Source: Haliotis rufescens
Lineage: Eukaryota
DNA: 64,000 bases
Assembly: GCF_023055435.1 (NCBI RefSeq)
Contig: NW_025963890.1
Location: 25,048,001-25,112,000 of the forward strand
Reading direction: 5' to 3'
This document shows positions 29,181-64,000 of this stretch, piece by piece (positions within the stretch are counted from its first letter, which is position 1; each line of letters starts with the position of its first letter). A program made the translations under genes and the position numbers. The notes under the pieces are model-generated. The model saw only the letters and a list, made by a program, of their open reading frames with translations. It searched no databases and was not told where the DNA came from.

Positions 29181-30683
29181 TACTCAACACCAAAAGTTCC
29201 TGTGACACCAATATTTTTCAAACAAGTAAAGTTTGATTTTCAATATTGTAGTACATGTATGAAATCAAGTCACAAAAACGCAACTGCTACAGAAAAGCAT
29301 GCATTCAATGCAAAAGTTGACTTTTATGCAAGTCCCATGCATTTCACTACCCAAGAATGGGTATAAAAACATGTGCGTTAACGGGATTCCATATGCGTTG
29401 TTTAGCATCGTGCTGACAACAACCACTCAGAAAAACAACAAAATTACGCAATTAATCAACATTACGAAATGCCGCGCCTGTCAGAAAATGAGCTTCTGAG
29501 AGCCATTGGTATTCTTGAAGCAGGATCGAGTCAACGTCATGTTGCAAGACAAGTTAACGTCCACAGAAACACCATTTGGTGTTTATGGCAACGTTGGCAA
29601 CAGACGAATGCAGTCAGAGATCATCCTCGGAGTGGTAGGCCACGCGTAACCAATAATCGACAAGACAACTGGATTCGAACAACACTCCTACGAAATCGAT
29701 TCCAGCCAGCAACAGTGACTACAAGAAGCATCCCTGGCCTTCGACGAATATCTTCACAAACCGTACGTCGTCGCCTCAGATGTGCAGGGATTGACGCCAG
29801 AAGACCCACCAGACGTCCTATTTTGACAGGAAACAACCGTCAAGCACGTCTAACAGTAGTGCTGACAGCGTCTACGCTGGACGGCCATGCAGTGGGGACA
29901 AGTTCTATTCACTGACGAGTCCCGTTTTCACCTCAGCCACAGCGATGGACGGATTCGAGTGTACCGACGTCGAGGTGAACGTTACGTCAATCATTGTGTC
30001 ATGGAAGAAGATCGGTTCTGTGGCGGCAGCGTTTTGGTATGGGGTGGGATTACAGCAAGACAGAGGACCCATTTGATAGTGGTAGAGGGAAATCTCAATG
30101 GACAGCGCTACCGCGACGAAATCATCGGCCCTGTTGTTCTACAGTTTTTGCGTCGTCATGACCCAGGCATTACCTTTCAACATGACAACGCCCGGTCTCA
30201 TATTGCTCGACTTGTTCAGGATTCTATTCAACAAAACAACGTGAATGTCATCCCCTGGCCGGCTCGCTCCCCCGATCTCTCACCAATCGAGCACATGCGG
30301 GATGATATGGATCGGCGCCTTCGACGTCCACCACGTGTTCCACATACACTCCAGTAACTTCGAAACTAGCTCCAGCAGATATGGGCAGATATCCCACAGA
30401 AATTTGTGCGACGCCTTGTCCATTCCATAAGACGAAGATTTGTTGCTTGTATCGCAACCAGAGGTGGACACACACGCTATTGATTTGTAAATTGACTTTT
30501 AGCACGTTCATGTTTTTTTTTAATGAAATCACGCATTTTCTGAAGTCAGCATGGCAAATTAAACCATTTGAACACTTACATGGTCTTTTTTCTGTTGCAA
30601 ACCGAAATTGTTTCAGATTTGGTAAAAAACATAACTTTGCATTAAATCTTATTCAATGTCACAGGAACTTTTGTTCTTCAGTA
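29181..30683 (+). mobile_element. Tc1 (DD34E) transposon, defective
   Basis: Imperfect TIRs (TACT...CAAAAGTTCCTGTGACA), TA TSD, transposase 29469-30483 (TDESRF, HDNAR, SPDLSPIEH, GGHTRY*) with a frameshift near 29850 and stops. Confidence 0.92.
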
Positions 30684-31560: not shown

Positions 31561-32164
31561 CATGGTGTAAGCATGTTTTTGTTTTTGTAAGCATTAAATA
31601 CATAAAATTGCAGCGAAAATGTTCCGACCCTGTAGTGAAAAGTTCCAGTTCTCGGGACAAATGTTTGTGTGTGTTTATGAGCGACGTTTCTGTATATTGT
31701 TAATGTGCAACATGAAAAAACAGGGAAAGTAAGACATACAATCGCAACATGAAACGAATCCCGATTGTTCATTAAAGATTTTGATCTGAAATCTGAAAAC
31801 ATGTAATTATGACAGAAACTGTTAGAATGCAGAGCCCAAAACGCAACTGAAGTACTGCTGCAAGAATTCCAAGAAATGACTGTGTTGGTGTCAAAAAATT
31901 AAACAAACAGACAGTCGCTAGTAAATACTACGGCTTTCAGGATGAAGTATCCTGAAGACTTAATAGAAAATGAGAAAATGTGATTTTTGTTTACCATGGA
32001 ATATGTATAAAAACATTTTTTTAAATAAAAATGTGTTTTATTTCAAATATGTTAATGGAAATATCATCAAATAGGAACTGACACACATAGAGCATTTGCA
32101 AGTATTTATTCCATGCTAAAAAGTCAGGTATCCTTTCTCTCCCCCCCTCTCCCCTCCGAAAAAA

Positions 32165-34990
32165 ACAGACGGAATGGCTAGACAGTGTAGTTGATAAAAC
32201 TGGACATGGCGAGTACAGGCGGGACAACAGACGGAATGGCGAGACAGTGTAGTTGATAAGACTGGACATGGTGAGTACAGGCGGGACAACAGACGGAATG
32301 GCTAGACTGTGTAGCTGATAAGACTGGACATGGTGAGTACAGGCGGGACAACAGCCGGAATGGCTAGACAGTGTAAGTGATAAAACTGGACATGGTGAGT
32401 ACAGGCGGGACAACAGCCGGAATGGCTAGACAGTGTAGGTGATAAAACTGGACATGGTGAGTACAGGCGGGACAACAGTCGGAATGGCTAGACAGTGGAG
32501 CTGATAAAACTGGACATCGTGAGTACAGGCGGGACAACAGACGGAATGGCTAGACAGTGTAGGTGATAAAACTGGACATGGTGAGTACAGGCGGGACAAA
32601 AGACGGAATGGCGAGACAGTGTAGGTGATAAAACTGGACATGGTGAGTACAGGCGGGACAAAAGACGGAATGGCGAGACAGTGTAGGTGATAAAACTGGA
32701 CATGATGAGTACAGGCGGGACAAAAGACGGAATGGCGAGACAGTGTAGGTGATAAAACTGGACATGGTGAGTACAGGCGGGACAAAAGACGGAATGGCGA
32801 GACAGTGTAGGTGATAAAACTGGACATGGTGAGTACAGGCGGGACAACAGACGGAATGGCTAGACAGTGTAGTTGATAAAACTGGACATGGTGAGTACAG
32901 GCGGGACAACAGAAGGAATTGCTAGACAGTGTAGGTGATAAAACTGGACATGGTGAGTACAGGCGGGACAACAGACGGAATGGCTAGACAGTGTAGTTGA
33001 TAAAACTGGACATGATGAGTACAGGCGGGACAACAGACGGAATGGCTAGACAGTGTAGTTGATAAAACTGGTAACATGGTGAGTACAGGCGGGACAAAAG
33101 AAGGAATTGCTAGACAGTGTAGGTGATAAAACTGGACATGGTGAGTACAGGCGGGACAAAACACGGAATGGCGAGACAGTGGAGGTGATAAAACTGGACA
33201 TGGTGAGTACAGGCGGGACAAAAGAATGAATTGCTAGACTGTGTAGCTGATAAAACTGGACATGGTGAGTACAGGCGGGACAAAAGAAGGAATTGCTAGA
33301 CTGTGTAGCTGATAAGACTGGACATGGTGAGTACAGGCGGGACAACAGACGGAATGGCTAGACAGTGTTGGTGATAAAACTGGACATGGTGAGTACAGGC
33401 GGGACAGCAGACGGAATGGCTAGACAGTGTAGCTGATAAGACTGGACATGGTGAGTACAGGCGGGACAACAGCCGGAATGGCTAGACAGTGTAGGTGATA
33501 AAACTGGACATGGTGAGTACAGGCGGGACAACAGCCGGAATGGCTAGACAGTGTAGTTGATAAAACTGGACATGGTGAGTACAGGCGGGACAACAGCCGG
33601 AATGGCTAGACAGTGTAGGTGATAAAACTGGACATGGTGAGTACAGGCGGGACAACAGCCGGAATGGCTAGACAGTGTAGGTGATAAAACTGGACATGGT
33701 GAGTACAGGCGGGACAACAGAAGGAATGGCGAGACAGTGTAGGTGATAAAACTGGACATGGTGAGTACAGGCGGGACAAAAGACGGAATGGCTAGACAGT
33801 GTAGTTGATAAAACTGGACATGGTGAGTACAGGCGGGACAACAGCCGGAATGGCTAGACAGTGTAGGTGATAAAACTGGACATGGTGAGTACAGGCGGGA
33901 CAACAGAAGGAATGGCTAGACAGTGTAGCTGATAAGACTGGTCATGGTGAGTACGGGCGGGACAACAGACGGAATGGCTAGACAGTGTAGTTGATAAAAC
34001 TTGACATGGTGAGTACAGGCGGGACAACAGCCGGAATGGCTAGACAGTGTAGTTGATAAAACTGGACATGGTGAGTACAGGCGGGACAAAAGAAGGAATG
34101 GCTAGACTGTGTAGGTGATAAAACTGGACATGGTGAGTACAGGCGGGACAAAAGAAGGAATTGCTAGACAGTGTAGTTGATAAAACTGGACATGGTGAGT
34201 ACAGGCGGGACAAAAGACGGAATGGCGAGACAGTGGAGGTGATAAAACTGGACATGGTGAGTACAGGCGGGACAAAAGAAGGAATTGCTAGACTGTGTAG
34301 CTGATAAGACTGGACATCGTGAGTACAGGCGGGACAACAGACGGAATGGCTAGACAGTGTAGGTGATAAAACTGGACATGGTGAGTACAGGCGGGACAAC
34401 AGACGGAATGGCTAGACTGTGTAGGTGATAAGACTGGACATGGTGAGTACAGGCGGGACAACAGCCGGAATGGCTAGACAGTGTAAGTGATAAAACTGGA
34501 CATGGTGAGTACAGGCGGGACAACAGACGGAATGGCTAGACAGTGTAGGTGATAAAACTGGACATGGTGAGTACAGGCGGGACAACAGTCGGAATGGCTA
34601 GACAGTGGAGCTGATAAAACTGGACATCGTGAGTACAGGCGGGACAACAGACGGAATGGCTAGACAGTGTAGGTGATAAAACTGGACATGGTGAGTACAG
34701 GCGGGACAAAAGACGGAATGGCGAGACAGTGTAGGTGATAAAACTGGACATGGTGAGTACAGGCGGGACAAAAGACGGAATGGCGAGACAGTGTAGGTGA
34801 TAAAACTGGACATGGTGAGTACTGGCGGGACAACAGACGGAATGGCTAGACAGTGTAGGTAATAAAACATGGTAGTGGGTGATAAAACTGGACATGGTGA
34901 GTACGGGCGGGACAACAGACGGAATGGCTAGACAGTGTAGGTGATAAAACTGGACATGGTGAGTACAGGCGGGACAACAGAAGGAATGGC
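32165..34990 (+). repeat. 62-bp satellite (exon-2 end plus donor unit), about 45 copies
   Basis: GCGGGACAACAGACGGAATGGCTAGACAGTGTAGGTGATAAAACTGGACATGGTGAGTACAG; same unit as 52724-54940. Confidence 0.97.
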
Positions 34991-35140
34991 TTCAATTTTT
35001 TCTTAGGAGGTTCGAAACTCTTAACATGTTCTGAAAATGTTTGGTTCCTTCTTTCAGAGAAACAAAATGTATTTCTTGAACCGCTGACTGAAAATGTTTT
35101 CTTTCTAAAACATGTCAGGCTACATTTCTTATTCACTCAG

Positions 35141-35263
35141 GTCGCCCTAAATGTCTGCTGACTCTGGTCAACCCAATCGGGGGACAGAAGAAAGGAGCCA
35201 AGCTGTACGAGACTATTGTAGAACCACTGTTTGCACTGGCGGGGATTGACGCGAAGCGTATAA
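35141..35263 (+). CDS. CERK-like A, exon equivalent to exon 3
   Basis: GRPKCLLTLVNPIGGQKKGAKLYETIVEPLFALAGIDAKRI; AG/GT. Confidence 0.8.
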
Positions 35264-35604
35264 GTAGGTGTTACTTAGTGAAAGTAAGGTCAACTGTTGG
35301 TCCATGGACATGTTAGTCGAGTAAGTCAACGTAGTACCCGTGCAGTATGCAGGTAGTCAAGCAGTTGCAAGCGGACAATGGGAGAACACGCTGGGAATGC
35401 CTGCCTCAGCGGTGATAGTACAACGGAATACAGGAAGGGAACACGTTTGGGCATTGGTACAAATTAGTGTTTAAAATTGGAATATGTTTCAATAAGTGTC
35501 ATGGAGTGTTTAGAGTAGGCGTTAATGATACGTTTCCCTCATTAACGATGAACATCTGAAATACATGAACAAGATATAAACATGAAATACTGTTTACATT
35601 TCAG

Positions 35605-42006: not shown

Positions 42007-42142
42007 GTAAGTTGCAGTGTCAAGAAGGAACGGTACTCACATTCAAAAGATACGATGCATAGTGGTATTGAAAATGTTAACAATGACTTGTCTCGTGTTC
42101 TGTGTAAAGGTATTGTTGCTATCGTTGGTAGTTTGTCTCCAG

Positions 42143-48064: not shown

Positions 48065-49079
48065 GCATCCGTTAACATCACCAGTGTGGGGTAAATGTAC
48101 TCGCCCATCTTACAGAGTGTGGTTGGCAAGTATATGTACAAGTAGGAGGCAATGTTTGTTACAGTAGAGTAGATATTGTTATGCTGGAGTAGAGAAGCCT
48201 GTTATGTACACACAAGGCACGAATGCAGTTCACCATGGAGGAAGAAACCAATCGACAGCCCACCTTCCTTGATGTACTCGTACAGAAAGATAGTAACGAC
48301 AAACTCCAGACCACTGTGTATCGGAAACCTACCCACACAGATCAATACATACACTATGCCTCCAACCATCCACCTCAAGTCAAGAAAGGAATTGTTTCAA
48401 CCCCAGCAAGACGAGCTCAAAACATCTGTTCCACGAAGCAACATCTAACTACTGAACTAAACCAGCTCAAACAAGTATTTACACAGTATAACCTCTATCC
48501 TGAGCAACTAGTACAACAGACGATACAGAACATCACCAAGAAATCTCGGAAATCCCCCTGTCAACAGTCTGCGCCCTTTGTAATCAGCCTCCCTTACTTT
48601 GGAACAGTAAGCCACAAAATCCAGAGACTCTTAAAGAAACAGGCCAACATTGATGTAATTTTCAAGAGAGGTCATACCATTCAGAACAATTAAAGCCACA
48701 TGGAAACCATCATCGAGCCACAAGCTAGAACCACCAGGAGCAGTGTACCACATTCCATGCAACTGTGGACAAGCTTACATAGGAGAAACATCTAGGCCCC
48801 TCAAAACCCGAATAAAAGAACATCAAAGTTCAGTCTCCAAATATGACTCTAAATCAGCTCTACCAGACCACATCCGTGACAACCCAAGCCACAGCATTCA
48901 GTGGGAGAGAGTCACAGCCCTCAACACCAACCTCAAAGACAAAAATATATATACCGTGTAATATACAATGACAGAAATATATAATATGTGTAGCATACAC
49001 TGAACGAATATATAAATGTAATGAATAAGTTCAATGAGAGAGTTGACATGATCCACACATATACTACATTGTATATGTA

Positions 49080-50374
49080 CGAGGGCTGGCTGAAAAGTTC
49101 TAAGCCTAAGTGGGATATCTCAATCGGATTGAAACAAACTTTTACCACCAACAAGTACAATCATTTAATGAATCATAGACATAAGAACTGAAACTGTAGT
49201 GTTATTATTGTCTTTGTACCAGACCATCTTGTGAACCTACCCATTGAAATCACCAGAAATGGACAAAACTGGCTATAGGGCAGTCATCAAGTACCTGCAA
49301 CTGAAAGGGCTAACTCCAACACAGATACATGCTGACATGGTCTCCACTTTAGGGGATGATGCCCCTTCCTTTTCCACTGTAAAGAAGTGGGCTGCGGAAT
49401 TCAAGCGTGACAGAGAGAGCCTTGACGATGACCCGCGTCCAGGAAGGCCTTCAACAGCAACCATTCTGGAAAACATTACCCGGGTGCATGACATGGTGAT
49501 GGCTGATCAACGATTGACCACTCGACATATTGCCAGTGGTGTGGGCATCCCTCGTGAGAGGGTTGAGCACATTATCACCAACGAGTTGGGAATGACAAAA
49601 GTTTCTGCAAGATGGGTGCCAAAACTCTTGACAGCGGATCAGAAACGTGTCAGATTCCTGACGTCCCGTGACAATTTATGCCGTTTTGAAGCAGATCCCG
49701 ATGATTTTTTGGCCCGATTTGTAACCATGGATGAGACCTGGATTCATCACTTTCAACCAGAAACCAAAATTCAGTCTTAACAATGGAAGCATCCGGAATC
49801 ACCAGCCCCCCAAAAAGCCAGGTCGGTTCCTTCTGCTGGAAAGGTGATGGCTTCAGTCTTTTTAGTTTCCAGGGGTATTCTGCTGATTGACTATCTTGAA
49901 AAAGGCCAGACTATCAATGGAAGATATTATGCTGACCTACTGAGACAGTTGCGTGAAGCTATCAAAGCTAAGCGACGGGGAATGCTCACTAAAGGAGTCC
50001 TGTTCCACCAAGACAATGCTCCTGTTCACAAATCGGTGGTTGCCATGTCAGCGATCCATGATTGTGGCTTCGAACTCATTGACCATCCCCCTTATTCACC
50101 CGATTTGGCCCCGTCAGACTTCCACCTGTTTCCCAAAATGAAAAAGGAACTAGCCGGTCACCATTTTCCTAGTAATGATGACGTCATTTCCGCTGTGAAT
50201 GACTTTTCTAAGGACGGTTGAAGAAAATTTCTTCTTGACCGGCATCCAGGCCTTGCAGCATCGCAGGCAAAAGTGTGTAAATCTGGAAGGGGACTATGTG
50301 GATAAATAAATGAAAACCATCGTCTTGGTACGGGTCTTTCACAGTTAGGCTTAGAACTTTTCAGCCAGCCCTCG
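49080..50374 (+). mobile_element. Mariner (DD34D) transposon, full length, inactivated
   Basis: TIR CGAGGGCTGGCTGAAAAGTTCTAAGCCTAA, TA at both ends; WVPKLL, DETW, QDNA, YSPDLAPSD; in-frame TAA at 49778. Confidence 0.95.
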
Positions 50375-50608
50375 TACATACCCCCGGCGTTCCATCAACT
50401 CATCAAATGCCCCAATCAGCCATAATTCCGTTGTTTATATTACTGGCTTCATCCTTTGTTTATGTCACTGACTTCACCGATGATTGTCATCACTACCCTT
50501 GTGTACATAACAGGCTTTTCTACTCCAGTATAACAATATCTACTCTTCAGTATAAACATTGCCTCCTACTTGTATATATACTTGCCAACCACACTCTGTA
50601 TATCACTT

Positions 50609-52103: not shown

Positions 52104-52269
52104 ATGGCCTCTGTGGACACTGAAGCGAACATCTCTGTTTTCGGTACAGACACCAGAGAGATACCCCTAGGGGTACGGCTGGCGGGAGAATTTACCCTGT
52201 CGGGAAAAACTGTCCGACTTGAGCTGATCGACTCGGGTCTCACCTGGAGAGGTCAAGGTCAAAGTACAG
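52104..52269 (+). CDS. CERK-like B exon 1
   Basis: MASVDTEANISVFG...LELIDSGLTWRGQGQST, AACATGG start context, GT donor. Confidence 0.75.
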
Positions 52270-55200
52270 GTCAGACAATCTTTCTCTTTTCGGGGAATTG
52301 TAATTTTGTTATCAAACTGCAGGTTTCTCAACAGCCGGGTCAGTGTGACACCTAGCGCCCCGCCTTGTTATTGTCGGCAAGATAAAACCTGTGTACCAGA
52401 TATAACATAACAATGGACCCTCAATTGGTACATTAATTCCTATATTCGCAAAAAGTAAACATCACCTGAAATTAGCAGGTAAAATACATGTGTTTTTTAT
52501 TATCTAAGCTTTGCAAACAGAGAAACTTTTATGGTACTTTTTATATTTTAGACAGTCGTGTCGAATGGGATGACGTGATCACTGCCTACCTGGGCGGGGT
52601 GTCCCGGGGGCCGGGCGTGAAGGCGAGGGTGGGGGTGGCGCCACAGGAGGACAGATTCACCCTACACTACATCGAACATCAGGAGAACAACATCCTCAGA
52701 CACAAACACGTTACGTTTATAGGACATGCGGGACAACAGAAGGAATGGCTAGACTGTGTAGCTGATAAAACTGGACAGGGTGAGTACAGACGTGACAACA
52801 GACGGAATGGCTAGACTGTGTAGCTGATAAGACTGGACATGGTGAGTACAGGCGGGACAACAGAAGGAATGGCTAGACAGTGTAGGTGATAAGACTGGAC
52901 ATGGTGAATACAGGCGGGACAACAGACGGAATGGCTAGACAGTGTAGGTGATAAGACTGGACATGGTGAGCACAGGCGGGACAACAGACGGAATGGCTAG
53001 ACAGTGTAGGTGATAAAACTGGTGACATGGTGAGTACAGGCGGGACAACAGAAGGAATGGCTAGACAGTGTAGCTGATAAGACTGGTCATGGTGAGTACA
53101 GGCGGGACAATTGACGGAATGGCTAGACAGTGTAGGTGATACAACTGGTGACATGGTGAGTACAGGCGGGACAACAGAAGGAATGGCTAGACAGTGTAGT
53201 TGATAAAACTGGTGACATGGTGAGTACAGGCGGGACAACAGAAGGAATGGCTAGACAGTGTAGGTGATAAAACTGGTGAAATGGTGAGTACAGGCGGGAC
53301 AACAGACGGAATGGCTAGACAGTGTAGCTGATAAGACTGGTCATGGTGAGTACAGGCGGGACAACAGACGGAATGGTTAGACTGTGCAGCTGATAAAACT
53401 CGACATGGTAAGTACAGGCGGGACAACAGACGGAATGGTTAGACTGTGCAGCTGATAAAACTCGACATGGTGAGTACAGGCGGGACAACAGACGGAATGG
53501 CTAGACAGTGTAGTTGATAAGACTGGACATGGTGAGTACAGGCGGGACAACTGACGGAATGGCTAGACAGTGGAGCTGATAAGACTGGACATGGCGAGTA
53601 CAGGCGGGACAACAGACGGAATGGCGAGACAGTGTAGTTGATAAGACTGGACATGGTGAGTACAGGCGGGACAACAGACGGAATGGCTAGACAGTGTAGC
53701 TGATAAGACTGGACATGGCGAGTACAGGCGGGACAACAGACGGAATGGCTAGACAGTGTAGTTGATAAAACTGGTGACATGGTGAGTACAGGCGGGACAA
53801 CAGACGGAATGGCTAGACAGTGTAGCTGATAAGACTGGACATGGCGAGTACAGGCGGGACAACAGACGGAATGGCGAGACAGTGTAGCTGATAAAACTGG
53901 ACATGGTGAGTACAGGCGGGACAACAGACGGAATGGCGAGACAGTGTAGCTGATAAGACTGGACATGGTGAGTACAGGCGGGACAACTGACGGAATGGCT
54001 AGACAGTGGAGCTGATAAAACTGCTGACATGGCGAGTACAGGCGGGATAACAGAAGGAATGGCTAAACAGTGTGATTGATAAGACTGGACATGGTGAGTA
54101 CAGGTGTGACAACAGAAGGAATGGCTAGACAGTGTGGTTGATAAGACTGGACATGGTGAGTACAGGCGGGACAACAGACGGAATGGCTAGACAGTCTAGT
54201 TGATAAAACTGGTAACATGGTGAGTACAGGCTGGACAAATGACGGAATGGCTAGACAGTGTAGCTGATAAGGCTGGACATGGTGAGTGCAGGCGGGACAA
54301 CAGACGGAATGGCTAGACAGTGTAGGTGATAAGACTGGACATGGTGAGTACAGGCGGGACAACAGACGGAATGGCTAGACAGTGAAGGTGATAAAACTGG
54401 TGACATGGTGAGTAAAGGTGGGACAACAGAAGGAATGGCTAGACAGTGTGTCTGATGAAACTGGACATGGTGAGTACAGGCGGGACAACAGCCGGAATGG
54501 CTAGACAGTGTAGGTGATAAAACTGGACATGGTGAGTACAGGCGGGACAACAGACGGAATGGCTAGACAGTGTAGGTGATAAAACTGGTGACATGGTGGG
54601 TAAAGGTGGGACAACAGAAGGAATGGCTAGACAGTGTGTCTGATAAAACTGGACATGGTGAGTACGGGCGGGACAACAGCCGGAATGGCTAGACAGTGTA
54701 GGTGATAAAACTGGACATGGTGAGTACAGGCGGGACAACAGACGGAATGGCTAGACAGTGTAGGTGATAAAACTGGTGACATGGTGAGTAAAGGTGGGAC
54801 AACAGAAGGAATGGCGAGACAGTGTCTCTGATAAAACTGGACATGGTGAGTACGGGCGGGACAACAGCCGGAATGGCTAGACAGTGTAGGTGATAAAACT
54901 GGACATGGTGAGTACAGGCGGGACAACAGAAGGAATGGCTTCAATTTGTTCTGAGGAGGTTGGAAACTCTTGACATGTAGTGAAAATGTTTGGTTCCTAC
55001 TTTCAGAGAAACAAATTGTATTTCTTGAACCGCTGACTTTTTATTTTTCTAAAACATGTCAGGCTACATTTCTTATTCTCTCAGGTCGCCCTAAATGTCT
55101 GCTGACTCTGGTCAACCCAATCGGGGGACAGAAGAAAGGAGCCAAGCTGTACGAGACTATTGTAGAACCACTGTTTGCACTGGCGGGGATTGACGCGAAG

Positions 55201-58200
55201 CTTATAAGTAGGTGTTACTTTAATTATGGTATATATGTGAATCACATATATCGTATTGATATTGTTATTGATCAAATATTGATTTTTTTTTTACCACATG
55301 CATGTTGATCATATACACATGGTATATGTGTGGATTATGTCAACTCTATATGGTAACCATGTGCATCATGTCAAGTGAGTGAGTGTGTGAGTTGGGTTTT
55401 ACGCCGCCTTTAGCAATACATCATGTCATGTAGTGAGTGAGTGAGTGAGTGAGTTGGGCTTAACGCTGTTTTTAACAGTATTCCAGTTATATCGCGGCGT
55501 GTCAGCTTAATATGGGAGGAAAGCCCGAAGTGATGCAGGTCTCAGACGTTTACCACTTCGGTGAAACCCACGAGCACGGGTATGGTGCTGACAAACCTAG
55601 AAACATAATCGGGGCGAACCGGGATGCCCAAGGGACGCAACTCTGCACAGCGAATCGCGGCGCCTTAGACGACTGGGCCACCCGTGCCACCTCATATCAA
55701 GTACGAGGGCTGGCTGAAAAGTTCTAAGCCTAACTGTGAAAGACCCGTATCAAGTCGATGGTTTTTATTTATTTATCCACATAGTCCCCTTCCAGGTTTA
55801 CACACTTTTGCCTGCGATGCTGCAAGGCCTGGATGCCGGTCAAGAAGAAATTTTCTTCAACCGTCCTTAGAAAAGTCATTCACAGCGGAAATGACGTCAT
55901 CATTACTAGGAAAATGGCGACCGGCTAGTTCCTTTTTCATTTTGGGAAACAGGTGGAAGTCTGACGGGGCCAAATCGGGTGAATAAGGGGGATGGTCAAT
56001 GAGTTCGAAGCCACAATCATGGATCGCTGACATGGCAACCACCGATTTGTGAACAGGAGCATTGTCTTGGTGGAACAGGACTCCTTTAGTGAGCATTCCG
56101 GATGCTTCCATTGTTAAGACTGAATTTTGGTTTCTGGTTGAAAGTGATGAATCCAGGTCTCATCCATGGTTACAAATCGGGCCAAAAAATCATCGGGATC
56201 TGCTTCAAAACGATATATATTGTCACGGGACGTCAGGAATCTGACACGTTTCTGATCCGCTGTCAAGAGCTTTGGCACCCATCTTGCAGAAACTTTTGTC
56301 ATTCCCAACTCGTTGGTGATAATGTGCTCAACCCTCTCACGAGAGATGCCCACACCACTGGCAATATGTCGAGTGGTCAATCGTTGATCAGCCATCACCA
56401 TGTCATGCACCCGGGTAATGTTTTCCAGAATGGTTGCTGTTGAAGGCCTTCCTGGACGCGGGTCATCGTCAAGGCTCTCTCTGTCACGCTTGAATTCCGC
56501 AGCCCACTTCTTTACAGTGGAAAAGGAAGGGGCATCATCCCCTAAAGTGGAGACCATGTCAGCATGTATCTGTGTTGGAGTTAGCCCTTTCAGTTGCATG
56601 TTCTTGATGACTGCCCTATAGCCAGTTTCGTCCATTTCTGGTGATTTCAATGGGTAGGTTCACAAGATGGTCTGGTACAAAGACAATAATAACACTACAG
56701 TTTCAGTTCTTATGTCTATGATTCATTAAATGGTTGTACTTGTTGGTGGTAAAAGTTTGTTTCAATCCGATTGATATATCCCACTTAGGCTTAGAACTTT
56801 TCAGCCAGCCCTCGTACATATACAATGTAGTATATGTGTGGATCATGTCAACTCTCTCATTGAATTTATTCATTACATTTATATATTCGTTCAGTGTATG
56901 CTACACATAGTATATATTTCTATCATTGTATATTACACGGTATATATATTTTTTGAATTACCTACACATGGTGTATATGTCAATCATCTGTTCATACTGA
57001 TACATATCAGTACACACATTCAGGGTAGTCTGTAATTTCAAATGTCCCCTTTCTTCTCTTCAAGTACAAAGTATGAGTAGTGAACAGGTATCGAAAGTTG
57101 CAACTTGGAACCCGAAATGACCAACTGATTTTGTTAATAAAATGTTTGTCGATATACAGCTTATCAAAAACATGTTATATTAAATGCAGTCACAGAAAGA
57201 TTCCGTCATGCAGAAGAAATAGCCAAAACGTATGACTTCTCCACTGTGGACGGGTAAGTTTGACATGGGTTTGGATTTAAACTGGTGGGAAGAATCCAAG
57301 TAAACTATGTTTGTTCTCTGCTTTTCTTTGGACGAGTTGATATGTGACTTACTTATTGCAAAATAATGCAAAATAGGCGTGATAATGTCGATAACCAAAT
57401 AAGGAACGTCATGTTACATGCATACTGCTTCTGTGCCTATCACTGTTCCATCTCTCCACACTGTTACTGCTTCAGTGCCTACGACTGTTCCATCTCTCCA
57501 CACTGTTACTGCTTCAGTGCCTACGACTGTTCCATCTCTCCACACTGTTACTGCCTCTGTGCCTACGACTGTTCCATCTCTCCACACTGTTACTGCCTCT
57601 GTGCCTACGACTGTTCCATCTCTCCACACAGTTACTGCTTCTGTGCCTACGACTGGTCCATCTCTCCACACTGTTACTGCTTCTGTGCCTACGACTGTTC
57701 CAGCTCTCCACACAGTTACTGCTTCTGTGCCTCCGACTGGTCCATCTCTCCACACTGTAACTGCTTCTGTGCCTACGACTGTTCTATCTCTCCACACTGT
57801 TACTGCCACTGTGCCTACGACTGTTCCATCTCTCCACACTGTAACTGCTTCAGTGCCTACGACTGTTCCATCTCTCCACACAGTTACTGCTTCTATGTCT
57901 GCGACTGTTCCATCTCTCCACACTGTTACTGCTTCTTTGTCTGTGATTGTTCCATCTCTCCACACTGTTACTGCTTCTATGTCTGTGATTGTTCCATCTC
58001 TTCACACTGTTACTGCTTCTATGTCTGTGATTGTTCCATCTCTTCACACTGTTACTGCTTCTATGTCTGTGACTGTTCCTTCTCTTCACACTGTTACTGC
58101 TTCTATGTCTGTGATTGTTCCATCTCTCCACACTGTTACTGCTTCTATGTCTGTGATTGTTCCATCTCTCCACACTGTTGCTGTTTCTATGTCTGTGATT

Positions 58201-61200
58201 GTTCCATCTCTTCACACTGTTACTGCTTCTATGTCTGTGATTGTTCCATCTCTCCACACTGTTACTGCTTCTATGTTTGTGATTGTTCCATCTCTTCACA
58301 CTGTTACTGCTTCTATGTCTGTGATTGTTCCATCTCTTCACACTGTTACTGCTTCTATGTCTGTGATTGTTCCATCTATCCACACTGTTACTGCTTCTAT
58401 GTCTGTAATTGTTCCATCTCTCCACACTGTTACTACATCTGCCTTCGACTGTTCCATCTCTCCACACTGTTACTGCTTCTATGTCTGTGACTGTTCCTTC
58501 TCTTCACACTGTTACTGCTTCTATGTCTGTGATTGTTCCATCTCTCCACACTGTTACTGCTTCTATGTCTGTGATTGTTCCATCTCTTCACACTGTTACT
58601 GCTTCTATGCGTACGACTGTTCCATCTCTCCACACTGTTACTGCTTCTATGTCTGCGATTGTTCCATCTCTCCACACTGTTACTGCTTCTATGCGTACGA
58701 CTGTTCCATCTCTCCACACTGTTGCTGCTTCTATGCGTACGACTGTTCCATCTCTCCACACTGTCACACAGGTTGATTGTGTCCGGGGGAGATGGGTTGT
58801 TCCAGGAGGTGCTGCATACGTTAATACCCCGCTATAACGAGGGGGTAGACCTTGATGACCCAGATGCAGAACTCAAGCTATTGCCAATAGCACTTGGCAC
58901 TCTACCTACAGGTCAGTATGCATGTTAATGCAACATCTCGAAGATAATAGGACAACAGTACACATACTGATAATATAAGTTCAGAGTTGAACTACAAATG
59001 CAAGAAATACGCGTGTGTTTCTTCTTCTCCTGCAGATGTGTTAACAAGACTTTACCTTCCTAACGATGCTAATCACATGATATTCTATCCATTTCAGGCA
59101 CGGGTAACGGAATCTCTATGTCGTGTCATGGATGCACGGACCTGGAGACAGGGGCACTCGTGGCTGTCCGAGGTAAGATTGACTGAGGTCCTTCCTCACA
59201 GCTGTATCCACCTGTATACAAACGGTTACCATATACTGCTGAGAAGAATGGTTCCTTGTGTCAAGAGTGACCAAACCCGTAAGTAAAACAGATCTTTTGA
59301 CATGCATGTGCAGGTCACTGACATTTCATTTGTCTTTGCATTTGTAGGGAAGAAACACTATATGAATATTATTAGTGTGCATGAATACCCTGGTCCCCTA
59401 ATAGGATATGCCGGTTGTGCCCTTGGCTATGGATTCTGGTCGGACTTGCTGATGAAGACGGATGACAATCGCTGGCTGAAGACATTTCGTTACCATGGTG
59501 AGTACATGCCATACAGACTGAAACTGATATATACCGTATTTACAGAAAATAATATTAGAATGTGTATGCATTCTTTGTATTAAATATCCGTCAAATTCAA
59601 AAAGTCACCTTCAGTTTAAGTAATGCACTAACGTACTTGTGTTTGGAGGCAGATGATGTATTCAATAGGTAGTCCATAGTACCTTTCCGTAGATTGTTAA
59701 AGATGTATTTAAGTGTAAAGTTCCATGATCTGTCAGCTGAATCAACATGCTGTCCGTACCATTTTGGAAAAGAGAATCAGAGTACTCATCAAAGACGTTC
59801 AGATAAACTGAAACGACCCTAATACATTCGAGTCCCATATCGTGTCAGTGACAGCTTCAAACGAAGGAAAAGGTCACCAACAGAATAAGAAAAGACCACT
59901 GTGATCTACACACAACGGTTACAGCTAGAGATCAACACAGAATGTTATTGGTCATGTTTTAGAACACCAAATCAGAAGTCAGGACACTTCCGTGGAGTTC
60001 CTGTATGATCTGGTTTGGGACTGTTCACTTTGAGTGATCTGATCTGATGGCTATGTACGTTGTTTCCAAAACAAACACTTTCGGAAACAATGCCACAAAA
60101 TAACGTCAAAGGGGGCACTGATGACACAGACGGAACATCCAACGATCTTGTTAGGTTTAATAAAGTGTCAATTTAAAACGTCTCGTTATTAGTAATGAAT
60201 GAAAACAACACCTTCTTATCAAATCAAATAAAACGAAGTGAGCCGTGTGCGCCACGTGTGACGTTGGTAATTAAGTCCACACCTGTCGCTCCATCGCTTG
60301 TAATGCAGCTTCTTATCATACGCTGTTGCTGTTTGTTTCCTTTGACTCACTTTAGGGATATTTATCATGATAATGACCAATGCTATCTATTACTGTAAAA
60401 TTACGGTAACAATATTTTCAGGGCATTGTCATTTGCAGAATCTCGAGGTCTGCCATTAAGACGTAGGGGGCAAGCGATACCCTGACAAATAGCGTTACCC
60501 TTATATAAATGATGAAGTATATAACCATCCTGCATAGACCAGATGTTCTGTTGTAGTGGGTATGGCGAAGAGTCTAGCCTCCAAGAAACGTGAGTTCCAC
60601 GCAGAGGGGGAGTATCTGCCTGCTCAAAGACCACACAGGGATGTCCGGTAAGGACAAACTGGAGCCCCCAAATTGTACTTTCCTCAAATTCAAAAGATAA
60701 AAGTATGTTATGTTCTCGTTTGTTTTTGTTAAGATCATCAAAACTGTTATTATGCCCAACGGGGAAGCTGCGTCTAAATGTTAGTATCTTATTTTTCATT
60801 TCGCGCTATATGCTCTTCATTTTTAGGTTGGGCGAGTTTACGAGTTTGTAATCAGTCGATATCAGTTGAAGGCAGCATCTTATATCACTTTATACATTTA
60901 TTTTATATTATTGTTACGGTAATAAACGGTTTTCAGAATGTGTTTCCTCTGTTCTATGGCAGCGCTGGTGAAGATGTAGACAAAAACGCCCACTCGGAAG
61001 GTAACTTTAAATTAGTGGGAATCATTTGGGAAGACTAATCCAGACTATTTCTTACGTACTGCAGCAATGGCTCCGTTTGTTAATGTGTTAAGAAAATCTA
61101 AAGTTAAGAGCATATTGTTTTATGATGTTTGTGAAACCTTCATGCACGGCTATGTTGCTGACACACCAAGACACATATGTGAAGGATGCAATTTGAACCC

Positions 61201-61589
61201 ATTCAAAACATTCTTGATTCCATTCACTCAATGATGTCACCAATTCATACCAAGATCACTTGGAGAAAAGCTATTATCATGACGTATCAGTTAAGCGGGT
61301 CCATTGTTGAAGCAGGAATATTGAGACAGGTTTAGCTGAGATGTGTTCTACACTCGAGAGTGTCTTCCACAAGTGTGACATACGAACTGTTGCTCCAGGT
61401 TGGGTGAAGTTTTCCGGCACGTATACCGGCATCAATGGAATGTTAGCTGGCTTCCACCAGGTGGCCGGCCAGGACAAGCTACAGATTGGTCAGCAGGGCG
61501 CCGGGATTAACGTGCTGCTGGAGACACAGACGGGGTCAATAGCCTACTTAAAGTGGCTGTATCATTTCCAGAACATGAACAGTAAAGTG
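52104..61589 (+). CDS. CERK: Ceramide kinase-like paralog B (exons 1-10; 3' exons lie beyond the window)
   Basis: Exons 52104-52269, 52552-52779, 55085-55207, 57190-57253, 58772-58911, 59098-59172, 59348-59497, 60557-60647, 60963-61000, 61399-61589. All are GT-AG, phase-consistent and stop-free. N-terminal PH-like region plus DAGK/SPHK/CERK catalytic motifs (RPKxLLxxxNPxGG, GGDG, GYGF, RWL). Confidence 0.88.
52552..52779 (+). CDS. CERK-like B exon 2 (PH-like)
   Basis: DSRVEWDDVITAY...FTLHYIEHQENNILRHKHVTF...EWLDCVADKTGQ followed by GTGAGT. Confidence 0.85.
52724..54940 (+). repeat. 62/64-bp satellite starting inside CERK-B exon 2, about 35 copies
   Basis: The first unit overlaps the coding AGQQKEWLDCVADKTGQ and the GTGAGT donor. 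Confidence 0.97.
55085..55207 (+). CDS. CERK-like B exon 3
   Basis: GRPKCLLTLVNPIGGQKKGAKLYETIVEPLFALAGIDAKLI. Confidence 0.88.
55433..55690 (-). mobile_element. tRNA-derived SINE (same family as 8768-9047), B-box segment deleted
   Basis: Reverse-complement match lacking about 30 bp including GGTTCGAA. Confidence 0.8.
55704..56814 (-). mobile_element. Mariner copy with a 184-bp internal deletion
   Basis: Same TIRs and same TAA stop as 49080-50374; 1111 bp = 1295 - 184. Confidence 0.95.
57190..57253 (+). CDS. CERK-like B exon 4
   Basis: ITERFRHAEEIAKTYDFSTVDG. Confidence 0.85.
57420..58763 (+). repeat. 42-bp pyrimidine-rich satellite abutting the exon 5 acceptor
   Basis: CTGTTCCATCTCTCCACACTGTTACTGCTTCTGTGCCTACGA, about 32 copies, two subtypes. 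Confidence 0.97.
58772..58911 (+). CDS. CERK-like B exon 5 (GGDG)
   Basis: LIVSGGDGLFQEVLHTLIPRY...LGTLPTG. Confidence 0.88.
59098..59172 (+). CDS. CERK-like B exon 6
   Basis: GTGNGISMSCHGCTDLETGALVAVRG. Confidence 0.88.
59348..59497 (+). CDS. CERK-like B exon 7
   Basis: KKHYMNIISVHEYPGPLIGYAGCALGYGFWSDLLMKTDDNRWLKTFRYH. Confidence 0.88.
60557..60647 (+). CDS. CERK-like B exon 8
   Basis: VGMAKSLASKKREFHAEGEYLPAQRPHRDV. Confidence 0.8.
60963..61000 (+). CDS. CERK-like B exon 9
   Basis: 38 nt, AGEDVDKNAHSE. Confidence 0.75.
61399..61589 (+). CDS. CERK-like B exon 10
   Basis: GWVKFSGTYTGINGML...YLKWLYHFQNMNSKV followed by GTGAGT. Confidence 0.85.
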
Positions 61590-64000
61590 GTGAGTTGACC
61601 GACACAGACAGGGTCAAAAGCCTACTTAAAGTGTGGCTGTATCAGTTCCAGAACATGAACAGCGACGTGCTGAGTTAACCGACACAGACAGGGTCCAAAG
61701 CCGACATAGAGTGGCTGTATCAGTTCCAGGACATACACAGTAACGTGCTGAGCTGACCGACACAGACAGGGTCCAAAGCCGACATAGAGAGGCTGTATCA
61801 GTTCTGGAACATACACAGTAACGTGCTGAGTTGACCGACGCAGACAGGGTCAAAAGCCTACTTAAAGTGTGGTTGTATCAGTTCTAGAACATACACAGTG
61901 ACGTGGTGAGTTGACCGACACAGACAGGGTCCAAAGCCGACATAGAGAGGCTGTATCAGTTCTAGAACATACACAGTAACGTGCTGAGTTGACCGACACA
62001 GACAGGGTCCAAAGCCGACATAGAGTGGCTGTATCAGTTCTGGAACATACACAGTAACGTGCTGAGTTGACCGACACAGACAGGGTCAAAAGCCGACATA
62101 GAGTGGCTATATCATTCCCAGATCATACACAGTAACGTGCTGAGTTGACCGACGCAGACAGGGTCAAAAGCCTACTTAAAGTGTGGTTGTATCAGTTCTA
62201 GAACATACACAGTGACGTGGTGAGTTGACCGACACAGACAGGGTCCAAAGCCGATATAGAGAGGCTGTATCAGTTCTAGAACATACACAGTAACGTGCTG
62301 AGTTGACCGACACAGACAGGGTCCAAAGCCGACATAGAGTGGCTGTATCAGTTCTGGAACATACACAGTAACGTGCTGAGTTGACCGACACAGACAGGGT
62401 CCAAAGCCGACATAGAGTGGCTGTATCAGTTCTAGAACATACACAGTAACGTGCTGAGTTGACCGACACAGACAGGGTCCAAAGCCGACATAGAGAGGCT
62501 GTATCAGTTCTAGAACATACACAGTAACGTGCTGAGTTGACCGACACAGACAGGGTCCAAAGCCGACATAGAGAGGCTGTATCAGTTCTAGAACATACAC
62601 AGTAACGTGCTGAGTTGACCGACACAGACAGGGTCAAAAGCCGACATAGAGTGGCTGTATCATTCCCAGATCATACACAGTAACGTGCTGAGTTGACCGA
62701 TGCAGACAGGGTCAAAAGCCTACTTAAAGTGTGGTTGTATCAGTTCTAGAACATACACAGTGACGTGGTGAGTTGACCGACACAGACAGGGTCCAAAGCC
62801 GACATAGAGAGGCTGTATCAGTTCTAGAACATACACAGTAACGTGCTGAGTTGACCGACACAGACAGGGTCCAAAGCCGACATAGAGTGGCTGTATCAGT
62901 TCTGGAACATACACAGTAACGTGGTGAGTTGACCGACACAGACAGGGTCCAAAGCCGACATAGAGTGGCTGTATCAGTTCTAGAACATACACAGTAACGT
63001 GCTGAGTTGACCGACACAGACAGGGTCCAAAGCCGACATAGAGTGGCTGTATCAGTTCTAGAACATACACAGTAACGTGCTGAGTTGACCGACGCAGACA
63101 GGGTCAAAAGCCTACTTAAAGTGTGGTTGTATCAGTTCTAGAACATACACAGTGACGTGCTGAGTTGACCGACACAGACAGGGTCAAAAGCCGACATAGA
63201 TTGGTTGTATCAGTTCAAGAACATACACAGTAACGTGCTGAGTTGACCGACACAGACAGGGTCCAAAGCCGACATAGAGAGGCTGTATCAGTTCCAGAAC
63301 ATACACAGTAACGTGCTGAGTTGACCGACGCAGACAGGGTCCAAAGCCGACATAGAGTGGCTGTATCAGTTCCAGGACATACACAGTAACGTGCTGAGTT
63401 GACCGACACAGACAGGGTCCAAAGCCGACATAGAGTGGCTGTATCAGTTCTAGAACATACACAGTAACGTGGTGAGTTGACCGACATAGACAGGGTCAAA
63501 AGCCTACTTAAAGTGTGGTTGTATCAATTCCAGGACATACACAGTAACGTGCTGAGTTGACCGACACAGACGGGGTCCAAAGCCGACATAGAGTGGTTGT
63601 ATCAGTTCTAGAACATACACAGTAACGTGCTGAGTTGACCGACACAGACAGGGTCCAAAGCCGACATAGAGTGGCTGTATCAGTTCTAGAACATACACAG
63701 TAACGTGCTGAGTTGACCGACACAGACAGGGTCCAAAGCCGACATAGAGAGGCTGTATCAGTTCTAGAACATACACAGTAACGTGCTGAGTTGACCGACA
63801 CAGACAGGGTCAAAAGCCGACATAGAGTGGCTGTATCAGTTCTAGAACATACACAGTAACGTGCTGAGTTGACCGACACAGACAGGGTCAAAAGCCTACT
63901 TAAAGTGTGGTTGTATCAGTTCTAGAACATACACAGTGACCTGGTGAGTTGACCGACACAGACAGGGTCAAAAGCCTACTTAAAGTGTGGCTGTATCAGT
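61523..64000 (+). repeat. 78/80-bp satellite starting inside CERK-B exon 10
   Basis: The unit is the exon end (ETQTGSIAYLKWLYHFQNMNSKV-derived) plus GTGAGTTGACC; about 31 copies to the window end. Confidence 0.97.

What the first reader, a model, noticed from the sequence alone, without database searches (positions are those of the whole stretch)
61523..64000. Second exon-end/donor satellite, with the donor inactivated in most units
Seen: the 78/80-bp unit copies the last about 67 nt of exon 10 plus GTGAGTTGACC. Unlike the intron 2 array, most units read GTG|CTGAGT, and only about 6 of about 30 keep GTGAGT (near 61906, 62220, 62767, 62924, 63472, 63944), mostly in the exon-like 80-bp variant. 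Paralog A has a plain 136-bp intron here. Inference: the same mechanism recurred independently in one gene, with donor-dead variants preferentially amplified.
Basis: partly seen in the sequence, partly recalled or inferred. Interest (0 to 1): 0.7.

Follow-up and report, generated by a model that had tools for sequence, protein, structure and literature searches.

The report
Splice-donor minisatellite with drifted dead donors
In a lipid-kinase gene of what is likely an abalone, the end of one exon and its splice signal are copied 45 times into the next intron and 36 copies have lost the signal, but neighbouring repeats of the same kind mostly keep theirs, so the loss is likely one chance mutation spread by repeat turnover rather than selection.

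Summary
Observation confirmed. The last 67 nt of exon 10 plus 11 intron bases of an intact ceramide-kinase-like gene are repeated 45 times; the array runs 1.1 kb past the window. GT survives in 6 of 30 window units and 9 of 45 overall. Spliced contigs from 4 of 4 runs of close relatives use the first donor.

Preferential amplification of dead donors is not supported. The G>C is one of 12 majority differences from the exon (chance of hitting GT about 0.26-0.29). It rides on the dominant 78-bp subfamily and recombines with its neighbours. In 1.56 Mb around the window, GT was lost in most units in 1 of 7 homology-supported arrays (1.2 expected) and 1 of 28 automatically picked ones (4.8 expected); that one array is this one. 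Nearest copies are not weaker.

Such arrays are known from human F7, CBS, LMNB2, PDGFA and amphioxus 'mirages', and this scan noted six others in this genome. One lead remains: donor motifs are about twofold enriched at minisatellite starts (32 of 440 vs 15).

The parts
52104..64000 (+). Gene B, a ceramide/sphingosine-kinase-like gene with 12 exons and an intact 495-aa ORF; exons 11-12 lie just past the window (65452-65621, 65751-65802)
   Evidence: Exon model and open frame. Pfam DAGK_cat on exons 3 and 5, E 0.06 and 0.004, below cut-off; PH_CERK on paralog C exon 2, E 8.7e-6. Five GT..AG joints from exon 5 to exon 10 in contigs and the exon 11-12 joint.
61399..61589 (+). Exon 10 (191 nt, ends in phase 0)
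   Evidence: joined to exon 9 in 3 of 4 runs and to exon 11 in 4 of 4 runs.
61523..61600 (+). Seed unit: last 67 nt of exon 10 plus first 11 nt of intron 10
61590..61595 (+). True 5' splice site (GTG|GTGAGT), the one used
   Evidence: Loose ends behind 61589 are exon 11 in X1, X2, X3, X13; loose ends before exon 11 are exon-10 type in X2 and X3.
61596..61598 (+). In-frame TGA at intron +7..+9: any downstream donor would give a premature stop
   Evidence: Read-through translation.
61601..64000 (+). Intron-10 minisatellite, 78/80-bp units: 30 full copies in the window, 45 in all (to 65136); 36 with G>C at donor +1
61837..61916 (+). First GT-retaining copy (unit 4, 80-bp type, GT at 61906); others at 62220, 62768, 62924, 63472, 63944
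   Evidence: positions along the array are not skewed, p=0.90.
52724..54940 (+). Intron-2 donor minisatellite of gene B (62 bp: 56 nt exon + 6 nt intron), GT kept in 30 of 34 units; internal control
32164..34950 (+). Copy of the intron-2 array in front of paralog A exon 3, GT kept in 40 of 43 units
   Evidence: flank and exon 3 are 94% identical to gene B over 317 nt.
42007..42142 (+). Paralog A intron 10, 136 bp, no array, same position: the intron predates the array

Best explanation
This is an intronic minisatellite seeded by a tandem duplication across the exon-10 donor; the spliced contigs examined use only the first donor, and the dead donor in 80% of copies is likely a single early G>C change spread by ordinary repeat turnover, not by selection. 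Shown: the unit, the counts, use of the first donor, mosaic recombinant units, repeated multi-unit blocks, and presence of the array and a C-type unit in relatives. Inferred: the first duplication (slippage or unequal exchange, possibly at the 15-nt near-repeat that bounds the array); tolerance because the most upstream donor is chosen, as in human F7; and hitch-hiking of C with the 78-bp subfamily that happened to expand.
For: (1) G>C is one of 12 of 78 positions where most units differ from the exon; the chance that GT is among them is 0.29, or 0.26 after removing one exon-side change. (2) 28% of other dinucleotides in the unit are also lost in most copies; rank p=0.16. (3) Three subfamily markers with no known splice role reach 73%, close to the 80% of C. 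(4) All four allele combinations occur with 10 of 14 other informative columns, and 3-4-unit blocks recur. (5) GT copies are spread evenly, p=0.90. (6) The same gene's intron-2 array keeps GT in 30 of 34 units; its commonest donor, ATG|GTGAGT, matches the donor used after exon 7, and read-through there also meets a stop. (7) Majority loss in 1 of 7 supported arrays (1.2 expected) and 1 of 21 hand-picked (3.6 expected), and in 1 of 28 automatic candidates (4.8 expected). Donor 9-mer divergence is 0.110 vs 0.118 elsewhere, p=0.63. (8) Unit 1 keeps GT in 19 of 21 arrays and is not weaker than later units, p=0.95. (9) The first donor is used in 4 of 4 runs. (10) Published F7 pseudo-sites are functional yet silent (PMC1557585).
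Against: Use of any downstream donor would hit an in-frame stop, so a cost exists in principle. The three nearest copies are all dead (about 0.5 by chance at 80%). [quoted passage not shown] 7 of 21 arrays have most copies more than 1 kcal weaker than the seed. The comparison set is small, comes from one chromosome region, and most tier-2 and automatic exons are unvalidated. Contigs drop rare isoforms, 30 and 16 loose-end rows were not shown, and the runs come from relatives and are only guessed to be RNA.
Confidence: 0.8

Rival explanations
1. Selection against competing donors: copies with GT cause some mis-splicing into a premature stop, so alleles rich in C units, or with C in the nearest units, were favoured in this array.
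For: In-frame stop at +7..+9. Units 1-3 are dead. Both donors are equally strong when GT is intact, -9.2 kcal. Proximal pseudo-donors are used in human 6-16 and CBS.
Against: No excess GT loss across arrays. Unit 1 is not weaker than later units. Nine intact copies persist and are evenly spread. The intron-2 array of the same gene keeps its donors despite an equal stop. No array-type splice junction among the rows shown.
Confidence: 0.14
2. Filter at birth: the array could only expand after the first copy had lost its donor; GT copies are later conversions from the exon or a surviving minor lineage.
For: Unit 1 is the most exon-like copy at several sites yet has C. Three 78-bp units carry G on a background that otherwise has C, which suggests conversion or crossover.
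Against: 19 of 21 comparable arrays expanded with GT in unit 1, so donor loss is not a general precondition. GT units carry array-specific changes, so they are not fresh exon copies.
Confidence: 0.04
3. The array is a regulator: GT-retaining units act as alternative donors that tune output by nonsense-mediated decay.
For: Read-through gives a stop well upstream of the last exon junction. Intron 10 sequence is present in RNA-type contigs.
Against: Only first-donor junctions were seen. Other introns of the gene are also covered at low depth, so intron cover is not specific. Paralog A lacks the array.
Confidence: 0.02

Closest known systems
Human F7 intron 7 37-bp VNTR (Borensztajn et al. 2006, PMC1557585; abstract, Discussion and passages read)
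   Same: First unit spans the exon-intron junction, the donor is reiterated in the intron, and only the most upstream donor is used.
   Different: Here the unit is mostly exon (67 of 78 nt, vs 4 of 37 in F7), there are 45 copies rather than 5-9, and 80% of copies carry a dead donor while F7 pseudo-sites are identical to the true one.
Human PDGFA intron 4 (81 bp x 16-18), LMNB2 (100 bp x 10-15), 6-16 (25 pseudo-sites) and CBS intron 13 (15-20 units), as described in the Introduction of PMC1557585; primary papers not read
   Same: Same architecture and similar unit length; first donor only in PDGFA and LMNB2. CBS gives a precedent for a donor-altering substitution in a repeat (reference title only).
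   Different: 6-16 and CBS also use proximal pseudo-donors, which was not seen here.
Amphioxus 'mirages' in Adh3 and globin genes (Ebner et al. 2010, PMC3087553; passages read; first author recalled)
   Same: Minisatellite-like duplications of exon-intron boundaries in an invertebrate, concerted evolution within clusters, normal splicing; 'many, but not all' repeats keep splice signals.
   Different: Different phylum, if the abalone label of earlier notes holds. Copy number and local density are much higher here (arrays fill 31% of 1.56 Mb).
Internal tandem repeats at exon-intron boundaries in human segmental duplications (PMC2812944; passages read)
   Same: Variable tandem repeats at exon-intron boundaries that differ between paralogs.
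   Different: Those can create new introns; here the intron is older than the array.

Membership tests
Junction-spanning minisatellite (F7 IVS7 type, amphioxus mirage) | Head-to-tail array of 10-200-bp units | tested here: met
   78/80 bp x 45.
Junction-spanning minisatellite (F7 IVS7 type, amphioxus mirage) | First unit spans a real exon-intron boundary | tested here: met
   Gene model and contig junction at 61589.
Junction-spanning minisatellite (F7 IVS7 type, amphioxus mirage) | Splice signal reiterated in intronic copies | tested here: met
   Intact in 9 of 45 copies, G>C in 36.
Junction-spanning minisatellite (F7 IVS7 type, amphioxus mirage) | Normal splicing at the first donor | tested here: met
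   4 of 4 runs of relatives, contigs only, rare forms not visible.
Junction-spanning minisatellite (F7 IVS7 type, amphioxus mirage) | Turnover by unequal exchange or conversion | tested here: met
   Four-gamete pairs and repeated multi-unit blocks.
Junction-spanning minisatellite (F7 IVS7 type, amphioxus mirage) | Copy-number polymorphism between alleles | not testable with these tools
   One assembly; short contigs cannot count units.
Intron gain by tandem duplication (Rogers model) | Intron absent at this position in paralogs or ancestors | tested here: not met
   Paralog A has a 136-bp intron at the same position.
Array under selection for donor loss | Donor GT lost more often than other positions across arrays | tested here: not met
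   7 to 28 arrays from one region.

The most novel reading that the evidence does not exclude
Minisatellites in this genome are born preferentially at 5' splice sites (about twofold excess of strong donor motifs at array starts, with several such arrays per gene family), through a link between splicing or transcription and local duplication. Among these hundreds of natural donor ladders, a minority such as this one are purged of donors by selection where leakage into a stop is costly.
Probability: 0.12. Interest if true: 0.55.

Novelty: new member of a known kind. Interest (0 to 1): 0.2.

Why it matters
As it stands it is an ordinary passenger repeat. The useful result is negative: spare splice donors in these arrays are tolerated and decay no faster than their neighbours, which fits first-donor selection beyond mammals. 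If the excess of arrays at donors holds genome-wide, this genome would offer a large natural series for testing how 5' splice sites are chosen and how minisatellites start.

Tried and rejected
Unit phylogeny to date the G>C: rejected as a method because units are recombinant. Timing was taken from relatives instead: tandem 78-bp joints in X1 and X16, a C-type unit in X1, both unit types across runs, and no G listed at the donor position with 4 rows not shown. The change therefore likely predates the split from these relatives.

Intron gain: rejected. Assembly artefact: rejected, since there are 25 distinct unit haplotypes and the array is in other runs.

The run search listed no holder on record as RNA; this is not used as evidence. 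Pfam validated only 3 of 57 candidate upstream frames, plus one weak DUF hit, so most comparison exons stay unvalidated. A protein search with exon 10 found only genes B and A.

The apparent better conservation of GT (p=0.003; p=0.026) is not claimed: array edges inflate divergence at other positions, and candidates were chosen for a strong seed donor. In the automatic set two rows are a duplicated pair and one array is counted twice (about 26 independent). In the tier-1 set, paralog C intron 2 may be a purely exonic duplication; dropping it leaves 1 of 6.

Donor use at intron 2 was not tested. The CBS paper was not held. Literature searches (listings only unless stated) showed no study of donor decay rates across such arrays and none on abalone donor minisatellites; subscription journals are not covered and no supplements were read.

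Full report
Setting. The window lies at G000:C112:25048001-25112000 in a 1.33-Gb genome. Earlier notes of this scan call it abalone; I did not test that label. The region is extremely rich in minisatellites: 220 arrays with period of 20 or more and at least 4 copies fill 484 kb of the 1.561 Mb that I fetched around the window.

The gene. Gene B has 12 exons and an intact 495-aa frame. Single exons give weak DAGK_cat hits below the curated cut-off, and exon 2 of a third paralog, C, on the minus strand about 50 kb past the window, hits PH_CERK at E 8.7e-6. It is therefore ceramide-kinase-like, by domain hints only. Contigs of four runs from four studies show GT..AG joints at the five predicted introns between exons 5 and 10 (two joints missing in X2) and at intron 11.

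Observation. The unit is the last 67 nt of exon 10 plus 11 intron bases. Thirty full copies lie in the window and six keep GT, at the positions given. The array ends at window-coordinate 65136 after 45 copies, 9 with GT. There are two subfamilies: 12 exon-like 80-bp units (6 with GT) and 33 others (3 with GT). Paralog A has a plain 136-bp intron at the same position, so the intron is older than the array.

Splicing. Loose ends behind 61589 are the start of exon 11 in 4 of 4 runs. Loose ends in front of exon 11 are of exon-10 type, not array type, in X2 and X3; the X1 contig starts at the junction. The runs are close relatives, are only guessed to be RNA, and are contigs that drop rare forms; 30 and 16 loose-end rows were not shown. 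Any downstream donor would include an in-frame stop at intron +7..+9.

Age. Relatives have the array: 78-bp tandem joints in X1 and X16, a C-type unit in X1, and both subfamily types across runs. Their exon 10 ends with C at unit position 64, as the array does, while the window's exon has A. At least one of the exon-array differences is thus on the exon side.

Within-array test. Most units differ from the exon at 12 of 78 positions. The chance that GT is among them is 0.29, or 0.26 with 11. 28% of other dinucleotides are also lost in most copies; rank p=0.16. Three markers of the 78-bp subfamily reach 73%. The donor column shows all four allele combinations with 10 of 14 other informative columns, blocks of 3-4 units recur, and GT copies are evenly spread, p=0.90. 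This fits one G>C event carried by the subfamily that expanded and shuffled by unequal exchange or conversion (inference).

Candidates were chosen by a strong donor in the seed unit and an open frame upstream (57 donors). Seven have homology or RNA support: gene B introns 2 and 10, paralog C introns 2 and 7, two introns of a CZIB-like gene, and an EF-hand gene (the second CZIB-like exon and the EF-hand first exon rest partly on recalled similarity). GT is lost in most units in 1 of 7 (1.2 expected), mean loss 0.18 vs 0.21, p=0.69. With 14 more hand-picked, unvalidated arrays it is 1 of 21 (3.6 expected). An automatic set with at least 9 exon bases inside the unit gave 1 of 28 (4.8 expected), mean loss 0.125 vs 0.224 for all other dinucleotides and 0.197 for other GT; the donor 9-mer diverged 0.110 vs 0.118 elsewhere, p=0.63. 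In each set the single case is this array. Unit 1 keeps GT in 19 of 21 and is weaker than later units in 10 and stronger in 11. Against my reading: 7 of 21 arrays have most copies more than 1 kcal weaker than the seed by U1 pairing, the sample is small and regional, and false exons dilute it.

Mechanism. A duplication across the donor leaves the exon and first donor intact, so it survives; turnover then amplifies it. The array is bounded by a 15-nt near-repeat (61523 onward and 65137 onward), which is either the seeding microhomology or just a partial last unit; I cannot tell which. Tolerance follows if the most upstream donor wins, as shown experimentally for human F7 (PMC1557585, Discussion read); that this rule holds here is inferred from the junctions seen.

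Known cases. F7, PDGFA, LMNB2, 6-16 and CBS carry such arrays, and 6-16 and CBS also use proximal pseudo-donors. Amphioxus mirages are the invertebrate parallel, with many but not all repeats keeping splice signals (PMC3087553, passages). Six earlier notes of this scan describe donor arrays elsewhere in this genome with first-donor use (unchecked); they gave me the F7 and lancelet leads, which I then read.

Residual lead. Strong donor motifs occur in 32 of 440 array-start zones, against 15 in flanks and 15 +/- 4 in shuffles; at a stricter cut-off 16 against 8 and 4 +/- 2. Donor-seeded arrays are thus a real and common class here. Whether this reflects a mutational bias or only survival of duplications that spare the exon is untested.

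Verdict. Real, correctly described, a new member of a known kind. The selective reading is not supported. Interest 0.2.

Noticed in passing
G000:C112:25159115-25161359, minus strand (paralog C, L015-L016): A 38-bp array of about 59 copies appears to be a purely exonic duplication inside exon 2 whose junction creates CAG|GTGGGT. A candidate older exon end with donor (9 nt longer, same phase) sits at the far end of the array. This may be a donor created by the duplication that rescued the gene; no RNA test.
   Followed up: partly
window 57423-58764: A 42-bp array of 32 copies in intron 4 of gene B ends 7 nt before exon 5 and repeats the pyrimidine tract; three copies carry CACAG (57624, 57708, 57876). 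All three arrays inside gene B thus abut splice sites.
   Followed up: partly
window 32164-35277: Paralog A has no match to exons 1-2 within 1.56 Mb. Its intron-2 array and exon 3 are a recent copy of gene B (94% over 317 nt), while its later exons are much more diverged from B: A looks chimeric or 5'-truncated, yet A-type contigs occur in X1 and X13.
   Followed up: partly
G000:C112:25280970-25283695, minus strand (L034): A CXXC zinc-binding (CZIB-like) gene has unrelated donor arrays (64 bp x 4, 33 bp x 61) in two consecutive introns; in the second, 19 of 60 copies lost GT.
   Followed up: partly
G000:C112:25025301-25027196, minus strand (L019): A 59-bp array starts at a strong donor motif, and its units look like the junction with about 12 nt around the donor missing; the exon is unvalidated and this array was not in the tested sets.
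   Followed up: no
L011:4147-4240 (just past the array): A high-copy SINE-like element abuts the 3' end of the intron-10 array (depth over 1000 in DNA-type run X16; 13 hits in 1.56 Mb).
   Followed up: no
window 49030-50376 and 55703-56816: Two oppositely oriented copies of a mariner-like element (transposase-like sequence with shared ends, recognised by eye), the second inside intron 3 of gene B; a Tc1-like remnant lies near 29450-30480.
   Followed up: no
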